Assembly: GCA_035546035.1 (NCBI GenBank)
Contig: DASZXC010000008.1
Location: 123,951-187,950, forward strand
Direction of reading: 5' to 3'
Origin: Minisyncoccota bacterium
Lineage (GTDB): Bacteria > Patescibacteriota > Minisyncoccia > Phycocordibacterales > UBA6065
Length of the DNA stretch: 64,000 nt
The notes beneath the pieces were generated by a model. The model made no database searches, was not told where the DNA came from, and saw only the letters and a program-made list of their open reading frames with translations. Below, piece by piece: positions 864 through 57,872 of the stretch. Positions within the stretch are counted from its first letter, which is position 1. Each line of letters begins with the position of its first letter. The position numbers and the translations under genes are program-made.

Positions 864-2192
864 ATGAAAAAAATAAGAAGCACTTTTGCCCTTCGAGGGG
901 GGCTTATCATCGCGATACTGCTCATGCCGCAAGCCGCTGCTTTCGGCGCCACCGCGATCCCGAAGGGGACCGCCACGTTACCGGTGCCCGCTTCCTGCGA
1001 TCTCGTGCTGAACGGGGTCAAGGCGCGCATTGCGCCCATAGGCGAAGTTCCTGTCGCAGGCGGGGATCTGGACCTCTCTGTCACTCTTTCGAACGAGAAC
1101 GCCTATCCGGTAAGGGGCATGGATGTCGTCGCACGCATCTCGAAGCTCGCTCAGAAGGCCGGCGACGCATATGCGATGGCTACCGATACCGTCGCCCGCA
1201 TCGATCTGGCCAAAGGAGTCTCTCTTTCGACCGGCGAATCCCGAGAGATCGCCCTTGCGTGGCATATGCCGGCAAATCTCGTAGCAGGGCCGTATCGCGT
1301 CGATATCTTCGCTAATTCAGGCGATTCGGCCGTAGGGGGGAACGAATATCTCGGCGTGCCGGCAGGAAGCTATCCGGTCCGCATCGCAGGCGGAACAAAG
1401 GAAGTCTCGTTCCTGAAGCCTTCTTCGGTCGCCGTCAACGGAGCCAAGCCGTTCGCCAATCTTGTCGCCGACGTAAGATCGGCCTCGAATGCCGTGTCTG
1501 TCGTGGCCCAGAGCACTCATTCAAAGGCGGTATCGGCGACGATGCGCTGGAGGGTCTATAGCTCTTATTTCGCGGACGAGGCCGCTCTCGTAACGACGAA
1601 ATCGGAGGCGGTGACTATCCCTGCGGGTGGAACGCAGGCTGTATCCTATTCGTTCAGCGGAGCGGAGAAGGGAACCTATCTCGTCGTCGGCGAGCTCGTC
1701 GACCAATCGAAGGTCTCGCGCGTAGCCGTGCGATTGAACAGGACAGACAAGCCTGAACCGGTCGTTCGATCGCTCGTGCTCTCTGATTTTCCCCTCTCGT
1801 CGTCGGGCGCAACTCCCGTATTCGGCTGCATCGCCGACAGCTCTAACGGAAATCTCCCTGCGACCGCGGTAAAAGTGACTCTTACCGATGCGAAAGGCTC
1901 CGTCGTATATTCAGGCGCTTTCCACAAGACCCCATCGAATCCCTTCCTTCAGTTCATCGGCAATATACTTCCGAATATAAAAGCCGAGAATCCTCTTACG
2001 CTCGCCCTTACCGCGTATGCCGCGGACGGAAGCGTCATCGCCGCGAAATCGGTCGTCTATTCATGCGATGACGGCTCTTGCGACCAGAGCTCAGGAGAGG
2101 ATACGGCCACATACGCCGGCATCGTCGCGCTCGCTCTCCTCGCGATCGCCGCGCTTCTGGTCTGGGAAAAGAAGCACAGGAAACAACTCTAA
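864..2192 (+). CDS. Hypothetical cell-surface protein with N-terminal signal peptide and C-terminal TM anchor plus basic tail
   Basis: ORF 846..2192. Likely start is the internal Met at 864 (MKKIRSTFALRGGLIIAILLMPQAAAFGA). C-terminus YAGIVALALLAIAALLVWEKKHRKQL is a hydrophobic helix plus basic tail. No LPXTG motif seen. Confidence 0.55.
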   Translation: MKKIRSTFALRGGLIIAILLMPQAAAFGATAIPKGTATLPVPASCDLVLNGVKARIAPIGEVPVAGGDLDLSVTLSNENAYPVRGMDVVARISKLAQKAGDAYAMATDTVARIDLAKGVSLSTGESREIALAWHMPANLVAGPYRVDIFANSGDSAVGGNEYLGVPAGSYPVRIAGGTKEVSFLKPSSVAVNGAKPFANLVADVRSASNAVSVVAQSTHSKAVSATMRWRVYSSYFADEAALVTTKSEAVTIPAGGTQAVSYSFSGAEKGTYLVVGELVDQSKVSRVAVRLNRTDKPEPVVRSLVLSDFPLSSSGATPVFGCIADSSNGNLPATAVKVTLTDAKGSVVYSGAFHKTPSNPFLQFIGNILPNIKAENPLTLALTAYAADGSVIAAKSVVYSCDDGSCDQSSGEDTATYAGIVALALLAIAALLVWEKKHRKQL

Positions 2193-2193
2193 T

Positions 2194-3465
2194 ATGAAAC
2201 ATATGAAGAACCTGTTGAAATACGTTTCGGTCGCAGCAGCGGTGCTCGTCTTGGCGCTGATCGTCGTGCCGCATGCGGCTTCGGCTCAGTGGTACTACGG
2301 CTTTGGAGGCTATAGCTTTAACCCTAATACGGACGCGCTCTACATAGACGGCGTTCGCGTCGAGTTCTGGCCTCCTAATGAGGGCGGAGACAATGGAGGA
2401 GGAGGTGGTTCCGTCAGCATGGATACTCAGTGCCCTGACGGCTCTACGGTCCCGGAGGGACAGCAGTGCCCTCCGACCACAAAGGTATGTCAGGACGGCA
2501 GCGTCGTCGCCATAAACGATTCGTGTCCTCCGCTCACCAAACAATGCCCTGACGGCAGCACGGTTGATATCTCTGCCCAATGCCCTCCGACGACGAAACA
2601 ATGCCCTGACGGCAGCGTCGTGGCCATAAATGCCCAATGCGCGCCGAATACATGCCAGGACCCTTCGGCATCGAACTATGGCGGAAGCCTTCCGTGCGAC
2701 TATCCTCCGGCTCTCTGCACGGATCCGTCCGCTTCTAACTACGGCAATTCGCTTCCATGCCAATATGTGCCGATTCAGTATTGCAACGACCCAGCGGCTC
2801 TAAACTATGGCCAGCCGGGAGATTGTGACTATCCTCCTGCAGTGACTATATGCCAGGACCCTTCGGCATCGAACTATGGCGGAAGCCTTCCGTGCGACTA
2901 TCCGCCGATATGCTCTGATCCGTCCGCTTTGAACTATGGCCAGGAAGGCTCGTGCTCGTATCCTCCGCAGAATGTATGCGAGGATCCGAATGCCAACAAT
3001 TACGGCCAGGTCGGCGGATGCACATATGGCGGCGGGGGAAACAATGGCGACAATAATAACGCCCAAACAGGCTTCACCATCTCCGGTCCGAACAGCGTGA
3101 GCGCCACGTTCATCGGAACCCAGTCGGGCGAATCCCAGGTCGCTTCAGTCACGGTGAATCCGGTCGGTGGGTTCGACTCCGATGTCGCCGTTGGAGTGAG
3201 TTCGACCTCGTGCCCGAACGTTTCCGGCTATTCGTTCGACGGCGGTCCGTATACGTCGTCACCGGCGACGGTCATGCGACAGAATCCTAGCGGATGGTAT
3301 GCAGCTCCTTCAGGCAATCTCTATCTCGCGGTGAGGGTCGGTTTCTCGAGTCCTATCCCGTCTCCGTGTCAGGTGACGATCGCCGCTTCGGGCGGCGGCA
3401 AGAGCGCGGATTTCACCATGACCGTCCATCCTGATTCCAAGAATCCTCAATTCCAGGAATTCTAG
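2194..3465 (+). CDS. Secreted Cys-rich tandem-repeat protein with C-terminal -FQEF
   Basis: Start ATG 2194 (MKHMKNLLKYVSVAAAVLVLALIVVPHAASA = signal peptide), in frame inside track ORF 2017..3465. About 19-aa repeats CPDGSTV...QCPPTTK occur 4 times, and about 21-aa repeats C.DPSASNYG.SLPCDYPP occur about 6 times. Ends ...KNPQFQEF-stop. Confidence 0.7.
   Translation: MKHMKNLLKYVSVAAAVLVLALIVVPHAASAQWYYGFGGYSFNPNTDALYIDGVRVEFWPPNEGGDNGGGGGSVSMDTQCPDGSTVPEGQQCPPTTKVCQDGSVVAINDSCPPLTKQCPDGSTVDISAQCPPTTKQCPDGSVVAINAQCAPNTCQDPSASNYGGSLPCDYPPALCTDPSASNYGNSLPCQYVPIQYCNDPAALNYGQPGDCDYPPAVTICQDPSASNYGGSLPCDYPPICSDPSALNYGQEGSCSYPPQNVCEDPNANNYGQVGGCTYGGGGNNGDNNNAQTGFTISGPNSVSATFIGTQSGESQVASVTVNPVGGFDSDVAVGVSSTSCPNVSGYSFDGGPYTSSPATVMRQNPSGWYAAPSGNLYLAVRVGFSSPIPSPCQVTIAASGGGKSADFTMTVHPDSKNPQFQEF
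2652..2903 (+). repeat. Exact 54-nt direct repeat (copies 2652-2705 and 2850-2903) inside the Cys-rich repeat gene
   Basis: atgccaggacccttcggcatcgaactatggcggaagccttccgtgcgactatcc occurs identically twice, 198 nt apart. It encodes the CQDPSASNYGGSLPCDYP unit. Other repeat units are diverged. Confidence 0.8.
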
Positions 3466-34428: not shown

Positions 34429-35283
34429 ATGAAATCATATCGACCAACATCTCCAGGCAGGCGCCAGATGCAGACGATCAACTTCAAGGAGTACATCACC
34501 CAGAAGGATCCTGTTAAGGCTCTCACCTATGGCCGAAAGCGCGACGTAGGACGAAACGCGGCAGGACGCGTTACCGTGCGCCACAAGGGCGGCGGCCATA
34601 AGCGCCTCTATCGCGACATCTCTTTCATGTATGACAAGAAAGACATTCCTGCGACCATCAAGTCCATTGAATACGATCCGAACCGATCGGGCTTCATCGG
34701 CCTCGCGGCATATCGCGACGGCGAGCGACGCTACGTCCTCCTTCCGAAGGGCGTAAAGCCAGGCACGACCATCGTGACCGGCGTCACCGCTCCTCTCCAG
34801 CCAGGCAACGCTCTTCCTTTGAAGAAGATCCCTGTAGGCACCTTCATCTACAACATCGAGCTTAAGCCGAACTCCGGCGCAAAGGCGGCTCGTGCAGCAG
34901 GCATATTCGCCCAGGTCATCGGTAACGACGCAGGCTATACCATGATCAAGATGCCTTCGACCGAAGTCCGAAAGGTCCACGAAGAGGCATTCGCTACCGT
35001 CGGCCAGGTATCGAACGACGAGCACTGGCTCGTGAACTCGGGTAAGGCAGGCCGCTCGCGATGGCTGGGTATCCGCCCGACGGTCCGTGGTACCGCGCAG
35101 AACCCGGTAGACCATCCATACGGCGGCGGTGAAGGCCGACAGGGCCGCGGTCTCCGAAGGCTCAAGACCCGATGGGGCAAGCCGGCCGGCAAGGGCCAGA
35201 AGACCCGTACGCCGAAGAAGTACTCGAACGTCTTCATCGTTTCGAGGCGCAAGGTTGGAAAGGATAGGAACAATATTCAGTAA
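34429..35283 (+). CDS. rplB: 50S ribosomal protein L2
   Basis: uL2 conserved sequence (..RHKGGGHKR.YR..., ..GGGEGR..). Confidence 0.95.
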   Translation: MKSYRPTSPGRRQMQTINFKEYITQKDPVKALTYGRKRDVGRNAAGRVTVRHKGGGHKRLYRDISFMYDKKDIPATIKSIEYDPNRSGFIGLAAYRDGERRYVLLPKGVKPGTTIVTGVTAPLQPGNALPLKKIPVGTFIYNIELKPNSGAKAARAAGIFAQVIGNDAGYTMIKMPSTEVRKVHEEAFATVGQVSNDEHWLVNSGKAGRSRWLGIRPTVRGTAQNPVDHPYGGGEGRQGRGLRRLKTRWGKPAGKGQKTRTPKKYSNVFIVSRRKVGKDRNNIQ

Positions 35284-35287
35284 TGAA

Positions 35288-35320
35288 ACAAAAAAACGGC
35301 CGGATGGCCGTTTTTTTGTT
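35288..35320 (+). terminator. Strong intrinsic terminator immediately after rplB, at the start of the AT-rich insertion
   Basis: aaaaaaacggccggatggccgtttttttg. Confidence 0.8.
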
Positions 35321-36231
35321 TCTATGCTTGAATGGATTAAACTTCTTTAACTTATGACTGCTACTCCGTTTGAAATAAAACTTATCGGCAAGATGGCTCT
35401 CGCGAATGAAAAGATTAAGAAGATTCCTCGAAAACTCCATGCGGCCACGTGTCCCATCGAAGGACCGTCGGGAGGAGAGAAATGTAATTGTGGGGCTCAA
35501 GATTTCAATTCGAACCTTGATGGGATCGTCAACGATCTTAAGGTCGATTAATCTCTTTGCAAATCTGGCCACTCCATTGGTCGGGTTTTTTTGAGGAAAT
35601 CGTTGTTTAATAGCGAAAAGTCTTTTACCTATGTCATCCATAAGCCCAGACGTCAGCGATGCTCCGCCCATGGACGATTCTATGCGGCAGTTCATCGCGA
35701 AGATTCCAAAAATCCTTCGAAATGCATCGAATTGGTAAACAAGATCAGCAAAGAGCATGGAGGAGCAGAGGGATTAAGTCCCTCTATTCACAAGAGAGCT
35801 AAGGAGCTCTCTTTTTGTTTGCTTTCTTAGGCTTTAGCCTGGATGATAGAATGTTCCTTATAGATCAATGTTAATTAAACATGATTAAAGTAGAATTTGA
35901 TAAGGGGAGGGGATTTAATCCGCACGTTTCCGATTTCTTAGATGCTCATAAGGAAATGACGTTACTTGGACTTGCATGGGCTTTGTTTTGGAGATTTTCA
36001 GTCGCATATGGCGCTATAGGCATTATTTTTGCAACTTTGTCTAACATTTTAGGCTGGTAATGCAAAATATTTGACTTATTTCCGTCCTCTGATAGGATAT
36101 CCACCACTAGCTTCGGAATGGGCACTAGACGGTAGAAACTAGGTAAAAGCCTAGTTTTTATCTTCCACCAGTTGTTTCTAGCAACTATAGCCCAGACGCC
36201 CGAGCTGTAATCCATTGTTTCAACACAGCAA

Positions 36232-36576
36232 ATGACGCGATCCCTTTCAAAAGGACTGAACGTAGATCCAAGGCTTCTCAAGAAGATCGAGGGCAAGAAA
36301 CCCCAGGAAACCGGCGTTATTAAGACGTGGCTTCGCGCATGCCACATTTCGCCTGAAATGGTGGGTTTCAAGTTCGGCGTCCATAACGGCAAAGACTTCG
36401 TCGAGGTCCTCGTGTCGGAAGACATGGTAGGTCACCGCCTCGGCGAATTTTCTTTGACCCGCAAGTTCACCAAGCACGGCGGCAAGATGCAGAAGGAGCT
36501 TGAAATGAAGAAGAAGGAGTCTGAAATGGCGGCTGCATCGGCAGCTAAGGCCGCTACGACCGAGAAAAAGGCCTAA
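36232..36576 (+). CDS. rpsS: 30S ribosomal protein S19
   Basis: [20 protein letters not shown]....IKTW.R...[36 protein letters not shown]. conserved uS19. Lys/Ala-rich C-terminal tail. Confidence 0.92.
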
Positions 36577-45774: not shown

Positions 45775-46006
45775 AAACTTTTTCGACCGCCGGTCGTATT
45801 CATTTACTCTTTCCTTTTTTCGTTTTGCAGGCTTTGTCCCCACTTGTACCTCGGAGAAGGGAGATTATAATGAAATGGGTTATTCGAAAGATTAACTCTA
45901 TAACATTTTTTTAGGGAAATAGCGCATTGAGTCCGATCTTGGTCGGACGTTACGCTTCCCACCTAGTGCAAACTAGGGACAATCTTCCGAATGACCCCCA
46001 GAGAAC

Positions 46007-46036
46007 CCGTTCTCATCCCCGTGAGAACGGTTTTTC
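46007..46036 (+). terminator. Intrinsic terminator upstream of the GC-rich cassette
   Basis: ccgttctca-tccccg-tgagaacgg followed by TTTTT. Confidence 0.6.
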
Positions 46037-46062
46037 TATTCCGGACGGGCGCGCAGAGGCGT

Positions 46063-46091
46063 TTGACATAAAGTACTATAAGGTGTATAAT
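46063..46091 (+). promoter_or_regulatory. Consensus sigma70 promoter (TTGACA-17 nt-TATAAT)
   Basis: ttgaca at 46063-46068, a 17-nt spacer, tataat at 46086-46091. About 60 nt downstream is a consensus RBS aaggagatacaat-ATG (46155). Confidence 0.7.
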
Positions 46092-46154
46092 ATAATAAAG
46101 TTCATTGAGTAGAGGAAACCAAAACCGCCCGAATAAGGGCAAGGAGATACAATA

Positions 46155-46751
46155 ATGAGCACACATGCAGGATTCGCGGCCGCCGCTCCGGCGTTTAGCC
46201 GGCTCGGCGCCCTCTTCAGGAGATTCGCCGGTAGGGAAAGCGCGTTTCGCCCTGTACGGGGCGGCGTTCAGAACGGGATCATCCGCTTCAAGCTCACGGG
46301 CCGGGGAATGACCGATGAGCAATGGCTTGCCCGTTTCAAAGCCAGGGGTATCCGGGTCGAAGACCAAGCCAGAAGCGTGCTCCGTACGTCGGAGTTCAAA
46401 CCTGCCGAAGGCGTCGTCGCTGCGGAGGTTGCGATCCTGAAGGACGCGATCTGGCGCGGCTGCGATCGGAGCACCGAGAATATCCGGGTCTTCGCCGCCG
46501 GGCATGGGCTCGGACGGCCGAATGCCGACCTCGCCTGCCTTATCCGCGACTCGCTCTCGGACCAGGAGATCGAGGCGATGGGCCTCCGCTGGATCGTCGC
46601 CATGCACGAACCGATCAAGGATCCCTATGGCGATCCCGGCCTCCTCGCCGCAGGGCCCGGCCGCTGTCTGGATGCGTATTGCGTCAGGCCCGGCCAGACT
46701 TGGAAGCGAGGGATCGGTTTTGCGTTCATCGTCCCTCAGGCAAGCCCTTGA
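46155..46751 (+). CDS. Hypothetical protein (GC-rich cassette; no recognisable family)
   Basis: 198-aa ORF with a perfect AAGGAG RBS 8 nt upstream and a consensus promoter. Arg/Ala/Gly-rich. GC visibly higher than the flanks. The overlapping minus-strand ORF 45963..46607 was rejected. Confidence 0.5.
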   Translation: MSTHAGFAAAAPAFSRLGALFRRFAGRESAFRPVRGGVQNGIIRFKLTGRGMTDEQWLARFKARGIRVEDQARSVLRTSEFKPAEGVVAAEVAILKDAIWRGCDRSTENIRVFAAGHGLGRPNADLACLIRDSLSDQEIEAMGLRWIVAMHEPIKDPYGDPGLLAAGPGRCLDAYCVRPGQTWKRGIGFAFIVPQASP

Positions 46752-46765
46752 GGCCGCGTCATAGC

Positions 46766-46799
46766 CCCGTTCCGGTTTACCGGAACGGGGCTATTTTTT
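46766..46799 (+). terminator. Intrinsic terminator after the cassette ORF
   Basis: ccccgttccgg-tttac-cggaacgggg-ctatttttt. Confidence 0.75.
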
Positions 46800-46818
46800 C
46801 GCGTGCTATACTTTTTCT

Positions 46819-47211
46819 ATGTTCTGGAACCGATTCCTCTTTCCGATGCTCGCCGCGCTGGTCGCCGTTGCCGGCCTGAACTGGATAGGCGGGGCCGAAG
46901 GCTATTATTTTACGACCGCATGGTACGATTGGCCCGTACATTTTTTGGGCGGCGTCTGGTCCGGGCTCTTTCTGCTCTGGATATTCAATCTCCCGCATAT
47001 GGGTCGCTTCAAGCGGTTCGCTTCGCTCGAAGCCGTATTGGGCCTCGTATTCCTCATCGGCCTCGCATGGGAGGGATATGAGCTTTTCTTCGGCCTGACG
47101 AGCCTCTACAAAGCGGGATACGGCTTCGATACGTTCCATGACCTCGTGAACGACGTTCTCGGCGCGGCCGCGGCGTTCTGCCTTACCCGCCGAACTATCG
47201 CTCGCGCATAA
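46819..47211 (+). CDS. Small integral membrane protein (about 4 TM), hypothetical
   Basis: 130 aa, hydrophobic helices, aromatic-rich (WYDWPVHFLGGVWSGLFLLWIF). Confidence 0.45.
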   Translation: MFWNRFLFPMLAALVAVAGLNWIGGAEGYYFTTAWYDWPVHFLGGVWSGLFLLWIFNLPHMGRFKRFASLEAVLGLVFLIGLAWEGYELFFGLTSLYKAGYGFDTFHDLVNDVLGAAAAFCLTRRTIARA

Positions 47212-54414: not shown

Positions 54415-54419
54415 ATTTG

Positions 54420-54819
54420 TGGAGATGCCGAGAGTCGAACTCGGGTGCAGAAAGATGTTCCAGTTGCTTCTACGCGACCTAGCGGTCTTTTGCCAGTGAG
54501 GCTTTAAGCGGGCGCACTATAAAGATTCGCGAAACGTGCGGACGCCGATCTTCGCGGGCCGAAGCCCTTCGATAAGGAGCGAAGAGTCTCCGTATCTATC
54601 CTGGATCTATAACACCGGGTCCTGCCGCGCCAGGAATGCGAGCGGGCCGATGTCGTTTAGGCGGGGCTTATTAAGCAGCCGCGTAAGCGAATGAAAACGT
54701 GTTCGTCGCGAAAGGCGATTTTACAGATTTTGCATTTGATGGGCGGAAAGTTTAGAGAGGTATCCTGCTCTATCGCGCGCAAAGGGAAGCTGTCCCTCTG
54801 TCTATGCCTGTCATCCCCA
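54420..54819 (-). ncRNA. ssrA: tmRNA (SsrA)
   Basis: Minus-strand 5' end GGGGAUGACAGGCAU... pairs with 3' end ...GGUUCGACUCUCGGCAUCUCC-A (T-arm-like GUUCGA, 7-bp acceptor stem with G3:U70). Immediately downstream of smpB. Internal frame GCG ACG AAC ACG UUU UCA UUC GCU UAC GCG GCU GCU UAA UAA (about 54669-54710) is a candidate tag ORF. Confidence 0.8.
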
Positions 54820-55266
54820 TTATTCTTGTCCTTTCAATGTTCTCCTGATGTCCCGGTCGGTCTCGCGCTTTTGGATCGAAGCCCGTTTGTCGAACTTCTT
54901 CTTGCCGCGGACGACTGCAATAGCTACCTTGAGCTTTGTTCCTTTATTATACACCCGAATTGGCACTATTGTCAAGCCCTTCTTGGCTTCCATATCAGCC
55001 AATTGGCGTATTTCGGCCTTGGTCATGATCAGTCGGCGCATGCGCATCGGGTCATAATCTGCCGGAGTGTTCGTCGGCTGATAGGGAGCGATTGACATCT
55101 GCAGTATATACGCCTCTCCGCCGCGTATAGTTACATAGGCGCCGTCGAGCACGGCGCCGTGCGTGCGCAAGGACTTCGCTTCGAGGCCGAGCAATTCGAT
55201 GCCGGCCTCGTATTCATCGAGGATCTCGTAGTCGAAGAAGGCTTTTTTGTTTTCCGCGAGGGCCAT
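54820..55266 (-). CDS. smpB: SsrA-binding protein SmpB
   Basis: ..NKKAFFDYEILD..EAGIELLGLEAKS.R...., basic C-terminal tail. 148 aa. Confidence 0.92.
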   Translation of the reverse strand: MALAENKKAFFDYEILDEYEAGIELLGLEAKSLRTHGAVLDGAYVTIRGGEAYILQMSIAPYQPTNTPADYDPMRMRRLIMTKAEIRQLADMEAKKGLTIVPIRVYNKGTKLKVAIAVVRGKKKFDKRASIQKRETDRDIRRTLKGQE

Positions 55267-57796: not shown

Positions 57797-57872
57797 GCGC
57801 CTATAGCTCAGTTGGTTAGAGCATCGAGCTTATACCTCGAGGGTCCTTGGTTCGAATCCAAGTAGGCGCACC
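57797..57872 (+). tRNA. tRNA-Ile with anticodon UAU (reads AUA)
   Basis: Manual fold of gcgccta-ta-gctc-agttggtta-gagc-a-tcgag-ctTATac-ctcga-gggtc-cttgg-ttcgaat-ccaag-taggcgc-a-cc. All four stems pair (acceptor 7 bp). T-loop TTCGAAT. Anticodon loop c-t-TAT-a-c. CCA not encoded. Confidence 0.8.

What the first reader, a model, noticed from the sequence alone, without database searches (positions are those of the whole stretch)
45775..46800. Self-contained GC-rich expression cassette: terminator - consensus TTGACA-17-TATAAT promoter - consensus AAGGAG RBS - 198-aa unknown ORF - terminator
The 46155-46751 ORF is flanked by two clean hairpin terminators. It is driven by a textbook-perfect sigma70 promoter and Shine-Dalgarno, which is rare for native genes here, and it has visibly higher GC than the ndk and membrane-protein flanks. 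The 380-nt region upstream (45775-46150) contains additional hairpins. The cassette interrupts the usual continuation of the spc/alpha operon: after map one expects infA-rpmJ-rpsM-rpsK-rpsD-rpoA-rplQ. The pattern resembles a moron or recently acquired, highly expressed accessory gene.
Basis: seen in the sequence. Interest (0 to 1): 0.5.

Follow-up and report, generated by a model that had tools for sequence, protein, structure and literature searches.

The report
Solo DGR target gene cassette
The flagged unit is a self-contained, inserted gene for a small lectin-like protein of the type that diversity-generating retroelements (DGRs) hypermutate in ultra-small "CPR" bacteria; here it sits alone, with no retroelement nearby, so it is a new member of a known kind of system.

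Summary
There is a perfect TTGACA-17-TATAAT promoter (46063-46091), an AAGGAG Shine-Dalgarno, a 198-aa ORF (46155-46751) and hairpin terminators at 46007-46030 and 46761-46794.

The ORF belongs to a large unnamed protein family of Patescibacteria (2,297 clusters at 50% identity). In 40 related loci the gene is followed by a template repeat (TR), avd and a reverse transcriptase. TR and variable region (VR) differ at 624 TR adenines against 35 other positions, so these are DGR variable proteins. The model has a C-type-lectin-like fold.

About 34 other loci carry solo copies running from promoter to hairpin. The window holds one such module, 741 nt (46063-46803). None of eleven related loci has an insert at this site. 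The promoter, the hairpin next to the Shine-Dalgarno and the downstream hairpin are homologous to the family's.

No TR, Avd or RT lies in the 64 kb. Whether this copy is still diversified in trans is unresolved (about 0.5).

The extra GC lies in codon positions 1-2; GC3 is native. No operon is interrupted, because relatives also end at map-ndk. The upstream "hairpins" are a separate conserved sRNA (45877-46035) with no Rfam match.

The parts
45844..45871 (+). Promoter of the upstream small RNA (-35 TTGTAC 45844-49, 16 nt, -10 TATAAT 45866-71). It is not part of the cassette.
   Evidence: The -10 box and its surroundings are conserved in the relatives (alignment A4).
45877..46035 (+). Conserved structured small RNA of about 125 nt plus its intrinsic terminator (stem 46007-46030). 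This is the 'upstream hairpins' and the 'first terminator' of the finding. It is a native neighbour, not part of the cassette.
   Evidence: It is 77-88% identical in DNA to intergenic DNA of 4 relatives, and 7 more copies occur in metagenomes. RNAalifold predicts 39 pairs, 5 of them compensatory. The MFE z-score is -6.2. A covariance model finds it in all 12 sources. In every relative with enough flank it lies just upstream of the orthologue of the 46819-47211 membrane-protein gene and the beta-CASP RNase gene. There is no Rfam match at E<=1.
46063..46803 (+). The inserted solo target module as a whole (741 nt). It lies between the sRNA spacer (...AGAGGCGT) and the TGCTATACT promoter of the next gene. 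GCGT occurs at both junctions (46059-62 and 46801-04).
   Evidence: In relatives the sRNA spacer joins directly to TGnTATA(C/A)T and the ATG of the next gene (alignment A4). Other solo copies share homology from about -190 to about +715 relative to the start codon.
46063..46091 (+). Cassette promoter TTGACA-17-TATAAT, homologous to the family promoter TTGACAAATATGnnGTTTAGGTGTATGATA.
   Evidence: The family promoter is visible in alignment A3. The shared AGGTGTAT(G/A)ATA context was read directly from the sequences.
46098..46154 (+). Short 5' leader. It is a remnant of the family's structured leader of about 150 nt. Hairpins 1 and 2 are deleted. Hairpin 3 is kept (GCCC 46127-30 / GGGC 46137-40), abutting the Shine-Dalgarno AAGGAG at 46141-46.
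   Evidence: The family leader is 96% paired, 15 of 26 pairs covary, and 0 of 500 shuffles reach that score. Model R1 hits the window at 46051-46157 with only 31.7 bits, E 7e-5. Alignment A3.
46155..46751 (+). ORF of 198 aa, a member of a Patescibacteria family of DGR variable proteins with a C-type-lectin-like fold.
46620..46739 (+). Region equivalent to the family's variable region (VR): DPYGDPGLLAAGPGRCLDAYCVRPGQTWKRGIGFAFIVPQ.
   Evidence: This is the hypervariable block of alignment A1. Family VRs of about 128 nt end 6-37 nt before the stop codon.
46761..46799 (+). Downstream hairpin (15-bp stem, loop TTTA) plus T-run. It is a transcription terminator and the probable DGR target-recognition hairpin.
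   Evidence: The 5' arm TAGCCC(C/T)(G/A)TTCC occurs at the same place in 24 of 81 family loci, 12 DGR-linked and 12 solo. The stems covary between loci. A hairpin after the VR is required for homing in BPP-1 (PMC3240598).
46804..46821 (+). Native extended -10 promoter TGCTATACT and the ATG of the next gene, the orthologue of the membrane-protein gene that carries the DUF2238 hit in relatives. This is the right flank of the insertion.
   Evidence: Conserved in relatives. The DUF2238 hits are; the window protein itself gave no Pfam hit.

Best explanation
The cassette is a solo target module of a diversity-generating retroelement (DGR) family that is widespread in Patescibacteria (CPR bacteria).

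What the ORF encodes. It encodes a small protein of about 200 aa: a poorly predicted N-terminal helix, followed by a C-type-lectin-like domain. The last 40 or so residues form the variable ligand-binding surface.

How complete elements of this family work. The layout is promoter, structured leader, target gene, conserved hairpin, a spacer of about 320 nt, a template repeat (TR) of about 128 nt, avd on the opposite strand, and a reverse transcriptase. The TR RNA is reverse-transcribed with errors only at adenines, and the cDNA overwrites the VR at the 3' end of the target gene.

What the window holds. Only the target half is present, from the -35 box to the terminator hairpin. It is a 741-nt insertion between a native small-RNA gene and the next native gene. 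The consensus promoter and Shine-Dalgarno should drive strong constitutive expression. The downstream hairpin should terminate transcription and, by analogy with the BPP-1 phage DGR, mark the VR end for retrohoming.

What is shown and what is inferred. Shown: family membership, the DGR nature of the family, the module boundaries, the insertion, and homology of the promoter, the Shine-Dalgarno hairpin and the terminator hairpin. Inferred: that this copy is (or until recently was) diversified in trans by a DGR elsewhere in the genome of at least 380 kb (my estimate is about 0.5), that the protein binds a ligand, and that the hairpin is a homing signal.
For: The family is a DGR target.
- Homolog P0002 lies next to bAvd and RVT_1. 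It has a 136-nt repeat between the gene's 3' end and the downstream DNA. In the aligned repeat, 13 of the 14 differences fall at TR adenines (read from alignment A2).
- A scan of GTDB genomes found 222 relatives. Forty of the 87 loci held carry target, TR, avd(-) and RT.
- TR and VR differ at 624 TR adenines and at 35 other positions. The mutated TR codons are mainly AAC and AAT.

The window ORF is a member.
- (E down to 7e-42).
- Alignment A1 shows conserved scaffold residues and a hypervariable C-terminus.

Fold.
- AF2 pLDDT is 80.

Solo modules are real and can be served in trans.
- About 34 loci lack an RT within 3-10 kb.
- Their homology runs from about -190 to about +715.
- The VR of solo copy L055 fits the TR of L024 in the same genome, with 94 matches, 17 adenine mismatches and 2 others.
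- At least eleven solo VRs fit the L012- or L042-type TR with 0-2 non-adenine mismatches.

The window cassette is homologous end to end.
- Promoter and Shine-Dalgarno hairpin.
- Leader model hit.
- Hairpin arm motif.

It is an insertion relative to eleven related loci.
Against: - There is no RT, Avd or TR in the 64-kb window.
- The VR 3'-end pattern has no match in JGI metagenomes.
- The window VR fits no sampled TR. The best fit is 68 nt with 50 matches, 8 adenine mismatches and 10 others.
- The VR carries a 3-aa deletion and a Trp-to-Cys change at a nearly invariant scaffold position.
- Two of the three leader hairpins are deleted.
- The hairpin has a 15-bp stem and a TTTA loop, unlike the 7-10-bp stems and GRNA loops of the BPP-1 class. 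It could be just a terminator.
- There is no signal peptide or membrane segment, so the site of action is unknown.
Confidence: 0.8

Rival explanations
1. Fossil or orphan target. The module is a genuine member of the DGR-target family, but this genome has no cognate DGR (lost or never acquired). The gene then works as a strongly expressed lectin-like binding protein of fixed sequence.
For: - There is no TR, Avd or RT in 64 kb.
- The VR fits no known TR.
- The VR has a scaffold deletion and a W-to-C change.
- The leader is truncated.
- The protein is the only member of its 90% cluster, so no VR variants are on record.
- One solo copy, L079, fits the TR of its own genome (L013) poorly, with 7 non-adenine mismatches in 99 nt. 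Decayed solo copies therefore seem to exist.
Against: - The ORF is intact, and the promoter, Shine-Dalgarno and hairpin are fully preserved.
- The hairpin arm matches the family's 13-nt degenerate motif TAGCCC(C/T)(G/A)TTCC exactly, although the protein is only about 45% identical. This suggests continued selection on a recognition element.
- The window covers at most 17% of the 380-kb contig, and the genome may be larger.
- Remote targets are documented for other DGRs (PMC5758913) and are shown here for L055/L024.
Confidence: 0.4
2. Phage moron or unrelated horizontally acquired accessory gene, with no connection to DGRs.
For: - It has its own strong promoter and terminator, raw GC above its flanks, and is absent from relatives.
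Against: - The flanks are housekeeping genes: S5, L15, SecY, adk, map, ndk, the beta-CASP RNase, L20, L35 and IF3.
- There is no PHROGs or PADLOC hit.
- GC3 is native.
- The family is tied to DGRs in 40 loci.
Confidence: 0.03
3. The downstream hairpin is only an intrinsic terminator and has no role in retrohoming. Its conservation would then reflect recent common descent of the module.
For: - It is followed by a T-run, as intrinsic terminators are.
- Its loop and stem length differ from the experimentally defined BPP-1 class.
- In most relatives it lies about 50 nt past the end of TR/VR homology.
Against: - It is conserved in sequence across loci whose coding sequence has diverged to about 45% amino-acid identity.
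- It is present in both DGR-linked and solo copies.
- Guo et al. found such hairpins downstream of the VR in most DGRs, at flexible distances of 4-34 bp.
Confidence: 0.3

Closest known systems
DGR variable proteins with a C-type-lectin fold (Mtd of Bordetella phage BPP-1, TvpA of Treponema denticola, archaeal AvpA, Thermus TaqVP)
CPR/Patescibacteria DGRs (the 'CPR set' with unclassified VR classes UVR1-6 in Wu et al. 2018, PMC5758913; DGR clade 2 in Roux et al. 2021, PMC8144416)
   Same: Same host phylum and small unannotated targets. In this family the cassette runs target, TR, avd, RT. The related loci come from Nomura-, Wolfe-, Falkow-, Uhr-, Azam- and Moranbacteria and Paceibacterota.
   Different: I could not check whether this exact family is one of the published UVR classes. 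[quoted passage not shown] Here about 40% of family copies are solo modules, and one is matched to a TR on another contig.
Non-adjacent or remote DGR targets (for example the seven extra targets of the Treponema DGR; Wu et al. 2018)
   Same: A target gene lying away from its RT but still carrying a VR and a downstream hairpin. This is demonstrated for L055/L024 in this family.
   Different: For the window copy the cognate TR has not been found, so remote targeting remains an inference.
Hairpin/cruciform target-recognition element of the BPP-1 DGR (Guo et al. 2011, PMC3240598)
   Same: A GC-rich inverted repeat with a 4-nt loop shortly after the VR. It is conserved across the family and its stems covary.
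   Different: The stem is 14-16 bp rather than 7-10 bp. The loop is TTTA, TCCG or TTCG rather than GRNA. A T-run follows, so it also looks like an intrinsic terminator. Its function is untested.
Phage morons (autonomous promoter-gene-terminator units in prophages)
   Same: The same anatomy: its own promoter, one gene, its own terminator, inserted between native genes.
   Different: There is no prophage context. The family belongs to a cellular retroelement system.

Membership tests
DGR target (variable-protein) gene | Homology to genes that are demonstrably diversified by a DGR | tested here: met
   The window protein matches the family at E 7e-42 and weaker and is recovered by the family profile. 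Forty homologous loci have TR/VR pairs with 624 adenine mismatches against 35 others.
DGR target (variable-protein) gene | A cognate TR elsewhere that matches the VR except at TR adenines | tested here: inconclusive
   An adenine-tolerant scan of both strands found none in the 64-kb window. JGI metagenomes gave none. The source genome is not in the GTDB-representative collection. The remaining 316 kb or more of the contig could not be read.
DGR target (variable-protein) gene | A DGR-type reverse transcriptase (and Avd) in the same genome | tested here: inconclusive
   tblastn with an RT and an Avd from the family finds nothing in the window (best E 1.6).
DGR target (variable-protein) gene | An inverted repeat (hairpin/cruciform) just downstream of the VR | tested here: met
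   There is a 15-bp stem at 46761-46794, 9 nt after the stop codon. It is homologous to the family's hairpin. The requirement is documented in PMC3240598.
DGR target (variable-protein) gene | An IMH-type GC-rich element at the VR 3' end that differs from the TR copy | tested here: inconclusive
   In family loci, TR/VR identity ends right after ...GTGTCGCAA. The window has GGTTTTGCGTTCATCGTCCCTCAG. Without the TR, no IMH/IMH* pair can be defined.
C-type-lectin (CLec/FGE-like) fold | Structural similarity of the VR-bearing domain to CLec-fold proteins | tested here: inconclusive
Phage moron | Location inside a prophage or phage genome | tested here: not met
   The neighbours are ribosomal proteins, SecY, adk, map, ndk, an RNase J-like enzyme, L20, L35 and IF3. 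There is no PHROGs hit.
Recently transferred island (compositional criterion) | Synonymous-site composition different from the host genome | tested here: not met
   GC3 is 0.744, against 0.70-0.79 in 13 neighbouring genes.

The most novel reading that the evidence does not exclude
Promoter-to-hairpin 'target modules' of about 0.75-0.9 kb may be a dispersible unit in their own right. They would spread within and between CPR genomes independently of the reverse transcriptase. Any resident DGR could adopt them, because the TR of this family is nearly invariant across lineages. On this reading, the conserved three-hairpin 5' leader would be an undescribed riboregulator. That leader is present upstream of the target in about 70 of 83 loci and also upstream of unrelated small Trp-rich proteins. 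It would control a regulon of hypervariable proteins, and the family-wide GC-rich, A-poor coding sequence would be an adaptation to living next to an adenine-mutagenic polymerase.
Probability: 0.2. Interest if true: 0.7.

Novelty: new member of a known kind. Interest (0 to 1): 0.4.

Why it matters
DGRs are the only known prokaryotic systems that rewrite a protein's binding site on purpose. They are especially common in CPR bacteria, whose episymbiotic lifestyle depends on recognising hosts.

- **Annotation.** This analysis gives a name and a mechanism to a "hypothetical protein" family of more than 2,000 clusters that Pfam, NCBIfam, PHROGs and PADLOC do not cover.
- **Undercounted targets.** Nearly half of the family's copies are stand-alone modules. 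Surveys that require an adjacent RT, such as Roux et al. 2021, cannot detect them. The number of DGR-served genes in CPR genomes is therefore probably underestimated.
- **For this window.** The practical outcome is a corrected annotation: an inserted solo DGR target, not an operon interruption or a moron.
- **Two candidate RNA elements.** A native sRNA lies at 45877-46035, and the family has a structured leader. Both could be submitted as new RNA families.

Tried and rejected
- **Protein family libraries.** Pfam, NCBIfam, PHROGs, PADLOC and a PDB sequence-profile search gave no hit for the ORF or its family.
- **Foldseek against the PDB.** Only noise came back (TM 0.12-0.22). The afdb50 library was unavailable.
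- **Rfam.** There was no hit on the region at E<=1. The whole window gave only tmRNA and one tRNA. Three family loci gave only tRNAs. Neither the upstream sRNA nor the family leader is a described family.
- **Search for a TR, RT or Avd in the window.** Nothing was found, and a general direct-repeat search found no partner for the VR.
- **Search for the cognate TR in JGI metagenomes.** The VR 3'-end pattern gave 0 matches.
- **Reading beyond the window edges.** Looking up edge ORFs failed, because my ORF start choices did not match any recorded protein.
- **GC as a sign of recent transfer.** Rejected once GC3 proved native and high GC proved a trait of the whole family.
- **The 14-codon ORF at 45872 (MKWVIRKINSITFF).** I considered it as a leader peptide. 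I rejected it because it lies across the -10 box and 5' stem of the conserved sRNA.
- **The sRNA as a riboswitch for the next gene.** This is unlikely. A conserved TGnTATACT promoter sits between the two in all relatives, and the window tolerates a 741-nt insert with a terminator between them.
Full report
**1. The observation**

- TTGACA (46063-46068), 17 nt, TATAAT (46086-46091) is a 12/12 match to the consensus.
- A scan of the whole 64 kb finds only one other 12/12 site, at 54975(-) upstream of the tmRNA gene. Shuffled sequence gives 0.02 sites per window.
- AAGGAG (46141-46146) lies 8 nt before the ATG of a 198-codon ORF at 46155-46751.
- Terminator-like hairpins with T-runs lie at 46007-46030 and 46761-46794.
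- ORF GC is 0.647, against about 0.56-0.58 for neighbouring genes. GC3 (0.744) is the same as in the 13 surrounding genes (0.70-0.79). The excess is in codon positions 1 and 2.

**2. What the ORF is**

Curated libraries do not recognise it. Pfam, NCBIfam, PHROGs, PADLOC and the PDB sequence search gave nothing.

A search of 5.8 billion proteins returned the protein itself, annotated as a hypothetical protein of a Candidatus Paceibacterota MAG, plus 31 unnamed homologs at 36-51% identity. A profile search of 1.84 billion cluster representatives found 2,297 family members, 809 of them at E<=1e-30. Among the 150 best, nearly all are 165-270 aa long.

The alignment shows a conserved body and a C-terminal block of about 40 residues. 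In that block, invariant scaffold residues (G, P, LL, A, G, R, W, L, A, Y, P, W, R, GFAF) alternate with positions that differ in almost every sequence.

**3. The family is the target of a diversity-generating retroelement**

- One homolog (P0002) lies next to bAvd and RVT_1 genes.
- The last 136 nt of that gene are repeated 469 nt downstream. In the aligned repeat, 13 of the 14 differences are at adenines of the downstream copy (my count from alignment A2).
- A scan of one genome per GTDB species found 222 relatives. Nearly all of the 80 kept are labelled as Patescibacteria lineages: Nomura-, Wolfe-, Falkow-, Uhr-, Azam-, Moran-, Taylorbacteria, Paceibacterota and 'Saccharibacteria'.
- In 40 of the 87 loci held (39 distinct), the gene is followed by a TR of about 128 nt starting about 290-410 nt after the stop, then avd on the opposite strand, then the RT.
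- Over these pairs, TR and VR differ at 624 TR adenines and at 35 other positions, 13 of which come from one locus. The scoring favoured adenine mismatches, but non-adenine positions are almost free of differences. The mutated TR codons are mostly AAC and AAT.
- The complete element is a discrete unit of about 2.7 kb. Homology among twelve loci starts about 200 nt before the start codon and ends about 2,480 nt after it, and the flanks are unrelated.

**4. Fold**

An AlphaFold2 model built on the family alignment has mean pLDDT 80 and pTM 0.75. Confidence is low only for residues 1-35.

**5. Solo modules**

- About 34 loci with at least 3 kb of downstream sequence have no TR, Avd or RT.
- Their homology to the complete element typically runs from about -190 to about +715. 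That is from the promoter to just past a hairpin that follows the stop codon.
- Such copies can be served in trans. The VR of solo copy L055 fits the TR of L024 on another contig of the same genome, with 94 matches, 17 adenine mismatches and 2 others.
- At least eleven solo VRs fit the L012- or L042-type TR with 0-2 non-adenine mismatches. This also shows how conserved the TR is across lineages.

**6. The window cassette is one of these modules**

*Promoter.* It is homologous to the family's: TTGACATAAAGTACTATAAGGTGTATAATA in the window, against TTGACAAATATGGCGTTTAGGTGTATGATA in the family (read).

*Leader.*
- The first bases of the transcript (AAAGTTCATTGA, family ATAGTTCTTTGA) match the family leader. 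So do the last 45 or so bases (TAGAGGAAACC...GCCCGAATAAGGGCAAGGAGATACAATAATGAGCACA).
- The roughly 100 nt in between are missing.
- In the family, that leader forms three hairpins. With my structure, 96% of cells pair, 15 of 26 pairs show compensatory changes, 0 of 500 shuffles reach the observed score, and slid controls pair at 29-42%.
- A covariance model of the leader finds it directly upstream of the target gene in about 70 of 83 loci. In the window it scores only 31.7 bits (46051-46157, E 7e-5), because only hairpin 3, next to the Shine-Dalgarno, survives.

*Downstream hairpin.*
- ATAGCCCCGTTCCGG-TTTA-CCGGAACGGGGCTAT is homologous to the family's TTAGCCCTGTTCCGATCCGTCGGAGCAGGGCTAA.
- The arm motif TAGCCC(C/T)(G/A)TTCC occurs after the stop codon in 24 of 81 loci, twelve DGR-linked and twelve solo.
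- Other loci carry covarying stems.

**7. It is an insertion**

Four relatives were found through the adjacent RNase J-like protein, at 70-77% identity.
- Two of them show S5-L15-SecY-adk-map-ndk.
- In all four, ndk is followed by one or two unrelated, apparently secreted proteins, then a conserved non-coding stretch, then the orthologue of the gene at 46819-47211 and the beta-CASP RNase.
- That orthologue carries the DUF2238 hit in three of the four.

None of these relatives has the cassette, and neither do seven further metagenome loci.

In the relatives, the spacer after the non-coding stretch runs straight into a TGnTATA(C/A)T -10 element 6-7 nt before the ATG of the next gene. In the window, 741 nt (46063-46803) lie between ...AGAGGCGT and TGCTATACT. 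GCGT is present at both junctions, which may be chance.

The claim that the cassette interrupts the spc/alpha operon is therefore wrong for this lineage. The operon already ends at map-ndk in the relatives.

**8. The upstream 'hairpins'**

Window 45815-46010 is 77-88% identical to the relatives' intergenic DNA. This region is a separate gene.
- Promoter: -35 TTGTAC and -10 TATAAT at 45866-45871.
- Core: a structured region of about 125 nt starting near 45877. It has a 16-bp closing helix, an invariant single-stranded AACUCUAUAACAUUUUUUUAGGG, a variable hairpin with compensatory changes, and a CCUAGU/ACUAGG hairpin.
- Terminator: the 46007-46030 stem.
- Its MFE z-score is -6.2.
- A covariance model finds it in all twelve sources, and in none of the 80 unrelated CPR loci.
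- Rfam has no match.

So the first 'terminator' of the cassette belongs to this sRNA.

**9. What remains open**

- The window has no RT, Avd or TR.
- The VR fits none of the 40 sampled TRs. The best fit is 68 nt with 50 matches, 8 adenine mismatches and 10 others.
- The VR has a 3-residue deletion and a Trp-to-Cys change in the scaffold.
- The source genome is not in the GTDB-representative set, and the VR end is absent from JGI metagenomes.
- The window is at most 17% of the 380-kb contig.

Against decay, the ORF, promoter, Shine-Dalgarno and hairpin are intact. The hairpin arm also matches the family motif exactly, even though the protein is only about 45% identical to its relatives.

I put the chance that this copy is currently diversified in trans at about 0.5. 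I put the chance that it is a solo DGR-target module at above 0.9.

**10. Comparison with what is known**

- Guo et al. 2011 showed that a hairpin/cruciform just after the VR is required for homing in phage BPP-1 (7-10-bp GC-rich stems, 4-nt GRNA loops, 4-34 bp from the VR). The element here has the same position and a 4-nt loop, but a longer stem, a different loop and a T-run.
- Wu et al. 2018 list a 'CPR set' of DGRs with unclassified VR classes. They state that CPR DGRs tend to have one target, and that targets more than 100 kb away occur in another lineage.
- Roux et al. 2021 define a Patescibacteria-restricted DGR clade and note that their method cannot detect remote targets.

The window feature is therefore a new, unannotated member of a known kind. 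The frequency of solo modules, the conserved leader and the compositional anomaly (section 11) were not mentioned in the passages of these papers that I read.

**11. Unexplained**

In 74 of 81 loci the target ORF is more than 5 GC points richer than its flanks. The means are 0.564 against 0.435. GC3 averages 0.68, with third positions C 0.41 and A 0.12. The RT of the same cassettes has GC3 0.405.

Noticed in passing
window 45844-46035 (+): An undescribed conserved small RNA with its own promoter and terminator. It has a 16-bp closing helix, an invariant U-rich single strand, a covarying hairpin and a CCUAGU/ACUAGG hairpin. In every relative with enough flank it sits just upstream of the orthologue of the 46819-47211 membrane-protein gene and the RNase J-like gene. 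Rfam has no match.
   Followed up: partly
L012 9849-10003 (and about 70 other loci); remnant at window 46098-46154: A structured 5' leader of about 150 nt with three hairpins and strong covariation lies upstream of the DGR target genes of this family. It is not in Rfam. The same leader also precedes unrelated small Trp-rich proteins (L033 3765-3906, L040 8265-8403, L080 3889-4081, L056 3898-4056). One of these shares the family's N-terminal motif of about 35 aa.
   Followed up: partly
family loci L001-L086 (for example L001 6001-6618, L004 3354-3986): The target ORFs are much more GC-rich than their host genomes (GC3 0.68-0.78 against 0.28-0.46 in three loci examined gene by gene). They are also more GC-rich than their own RT gene (GC3 about 0.31-0.40). 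Third codon positions are C-rich and A-poor. The cause is unknown.
   Followed up: partly
L012 10643-10971 and the equivalent in other DGR-linked loci: The non-coding spacer of about 320 nt between the target gene and the TR is more conserved between lineages (84-91% identity) than the RT gene (about 60-70%). This suggests a functional RNA or DNA element, possibly part of the DGR RNA.
   Followed up: no
L087-L090, between ndk and the sRNA (for example L090 4705-5220, L087 3912-4841): In relatives, the slot after ndk holds different signal-peptide-bearing proteins on the opposite strand, some distantly related to one another (25-35% identity). The window has none. This is a variable region of an otherwise syntenic backbone.
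   Followed up: partly
window 54946-54975 (-): The only other perfect TTGACA-18-TATAAT promoter in the window. It lies about 130 nt upstream of the tmRNA gene (54417-54818, minus strand).
   Followed up: no
window 57797-57872 (+): A tRNA-Ile with anticodon TAT (UAU). This is an uncommon way of reading AUA, without lysidine modification.
   Followed up: no
window 2464-2967 (+), inside ORF 2017-3465: Tandem, diverged repeats of 57-63 nt that encode Cys/Pro-rich units within a 482-aa ORF.
   Followed up: no
window 35000-36500: A local GC trough (0.43-0.47 against 0.56 for the window). It holds two minus-strand ORFs (35234-35758 and 35946-36425) with GC3 of only 0.46-0.51, so it is a better compositional candidate for foreign DNA than the flagged cassette.
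   Followed up: no
L012 9726-9796: In this locus the complete DGR cassette starts immediately after a tRNA gene.
   Followed up: no
window 46804-46821 and relatives: The gene at 46819-47211, whose orthologues carry the DUF2238 hit, has a conserved extended -10 element (TGnTATACT) only 6-7 nt before its ATG. This suggests a leaderless mRNA.
   Followed up: no
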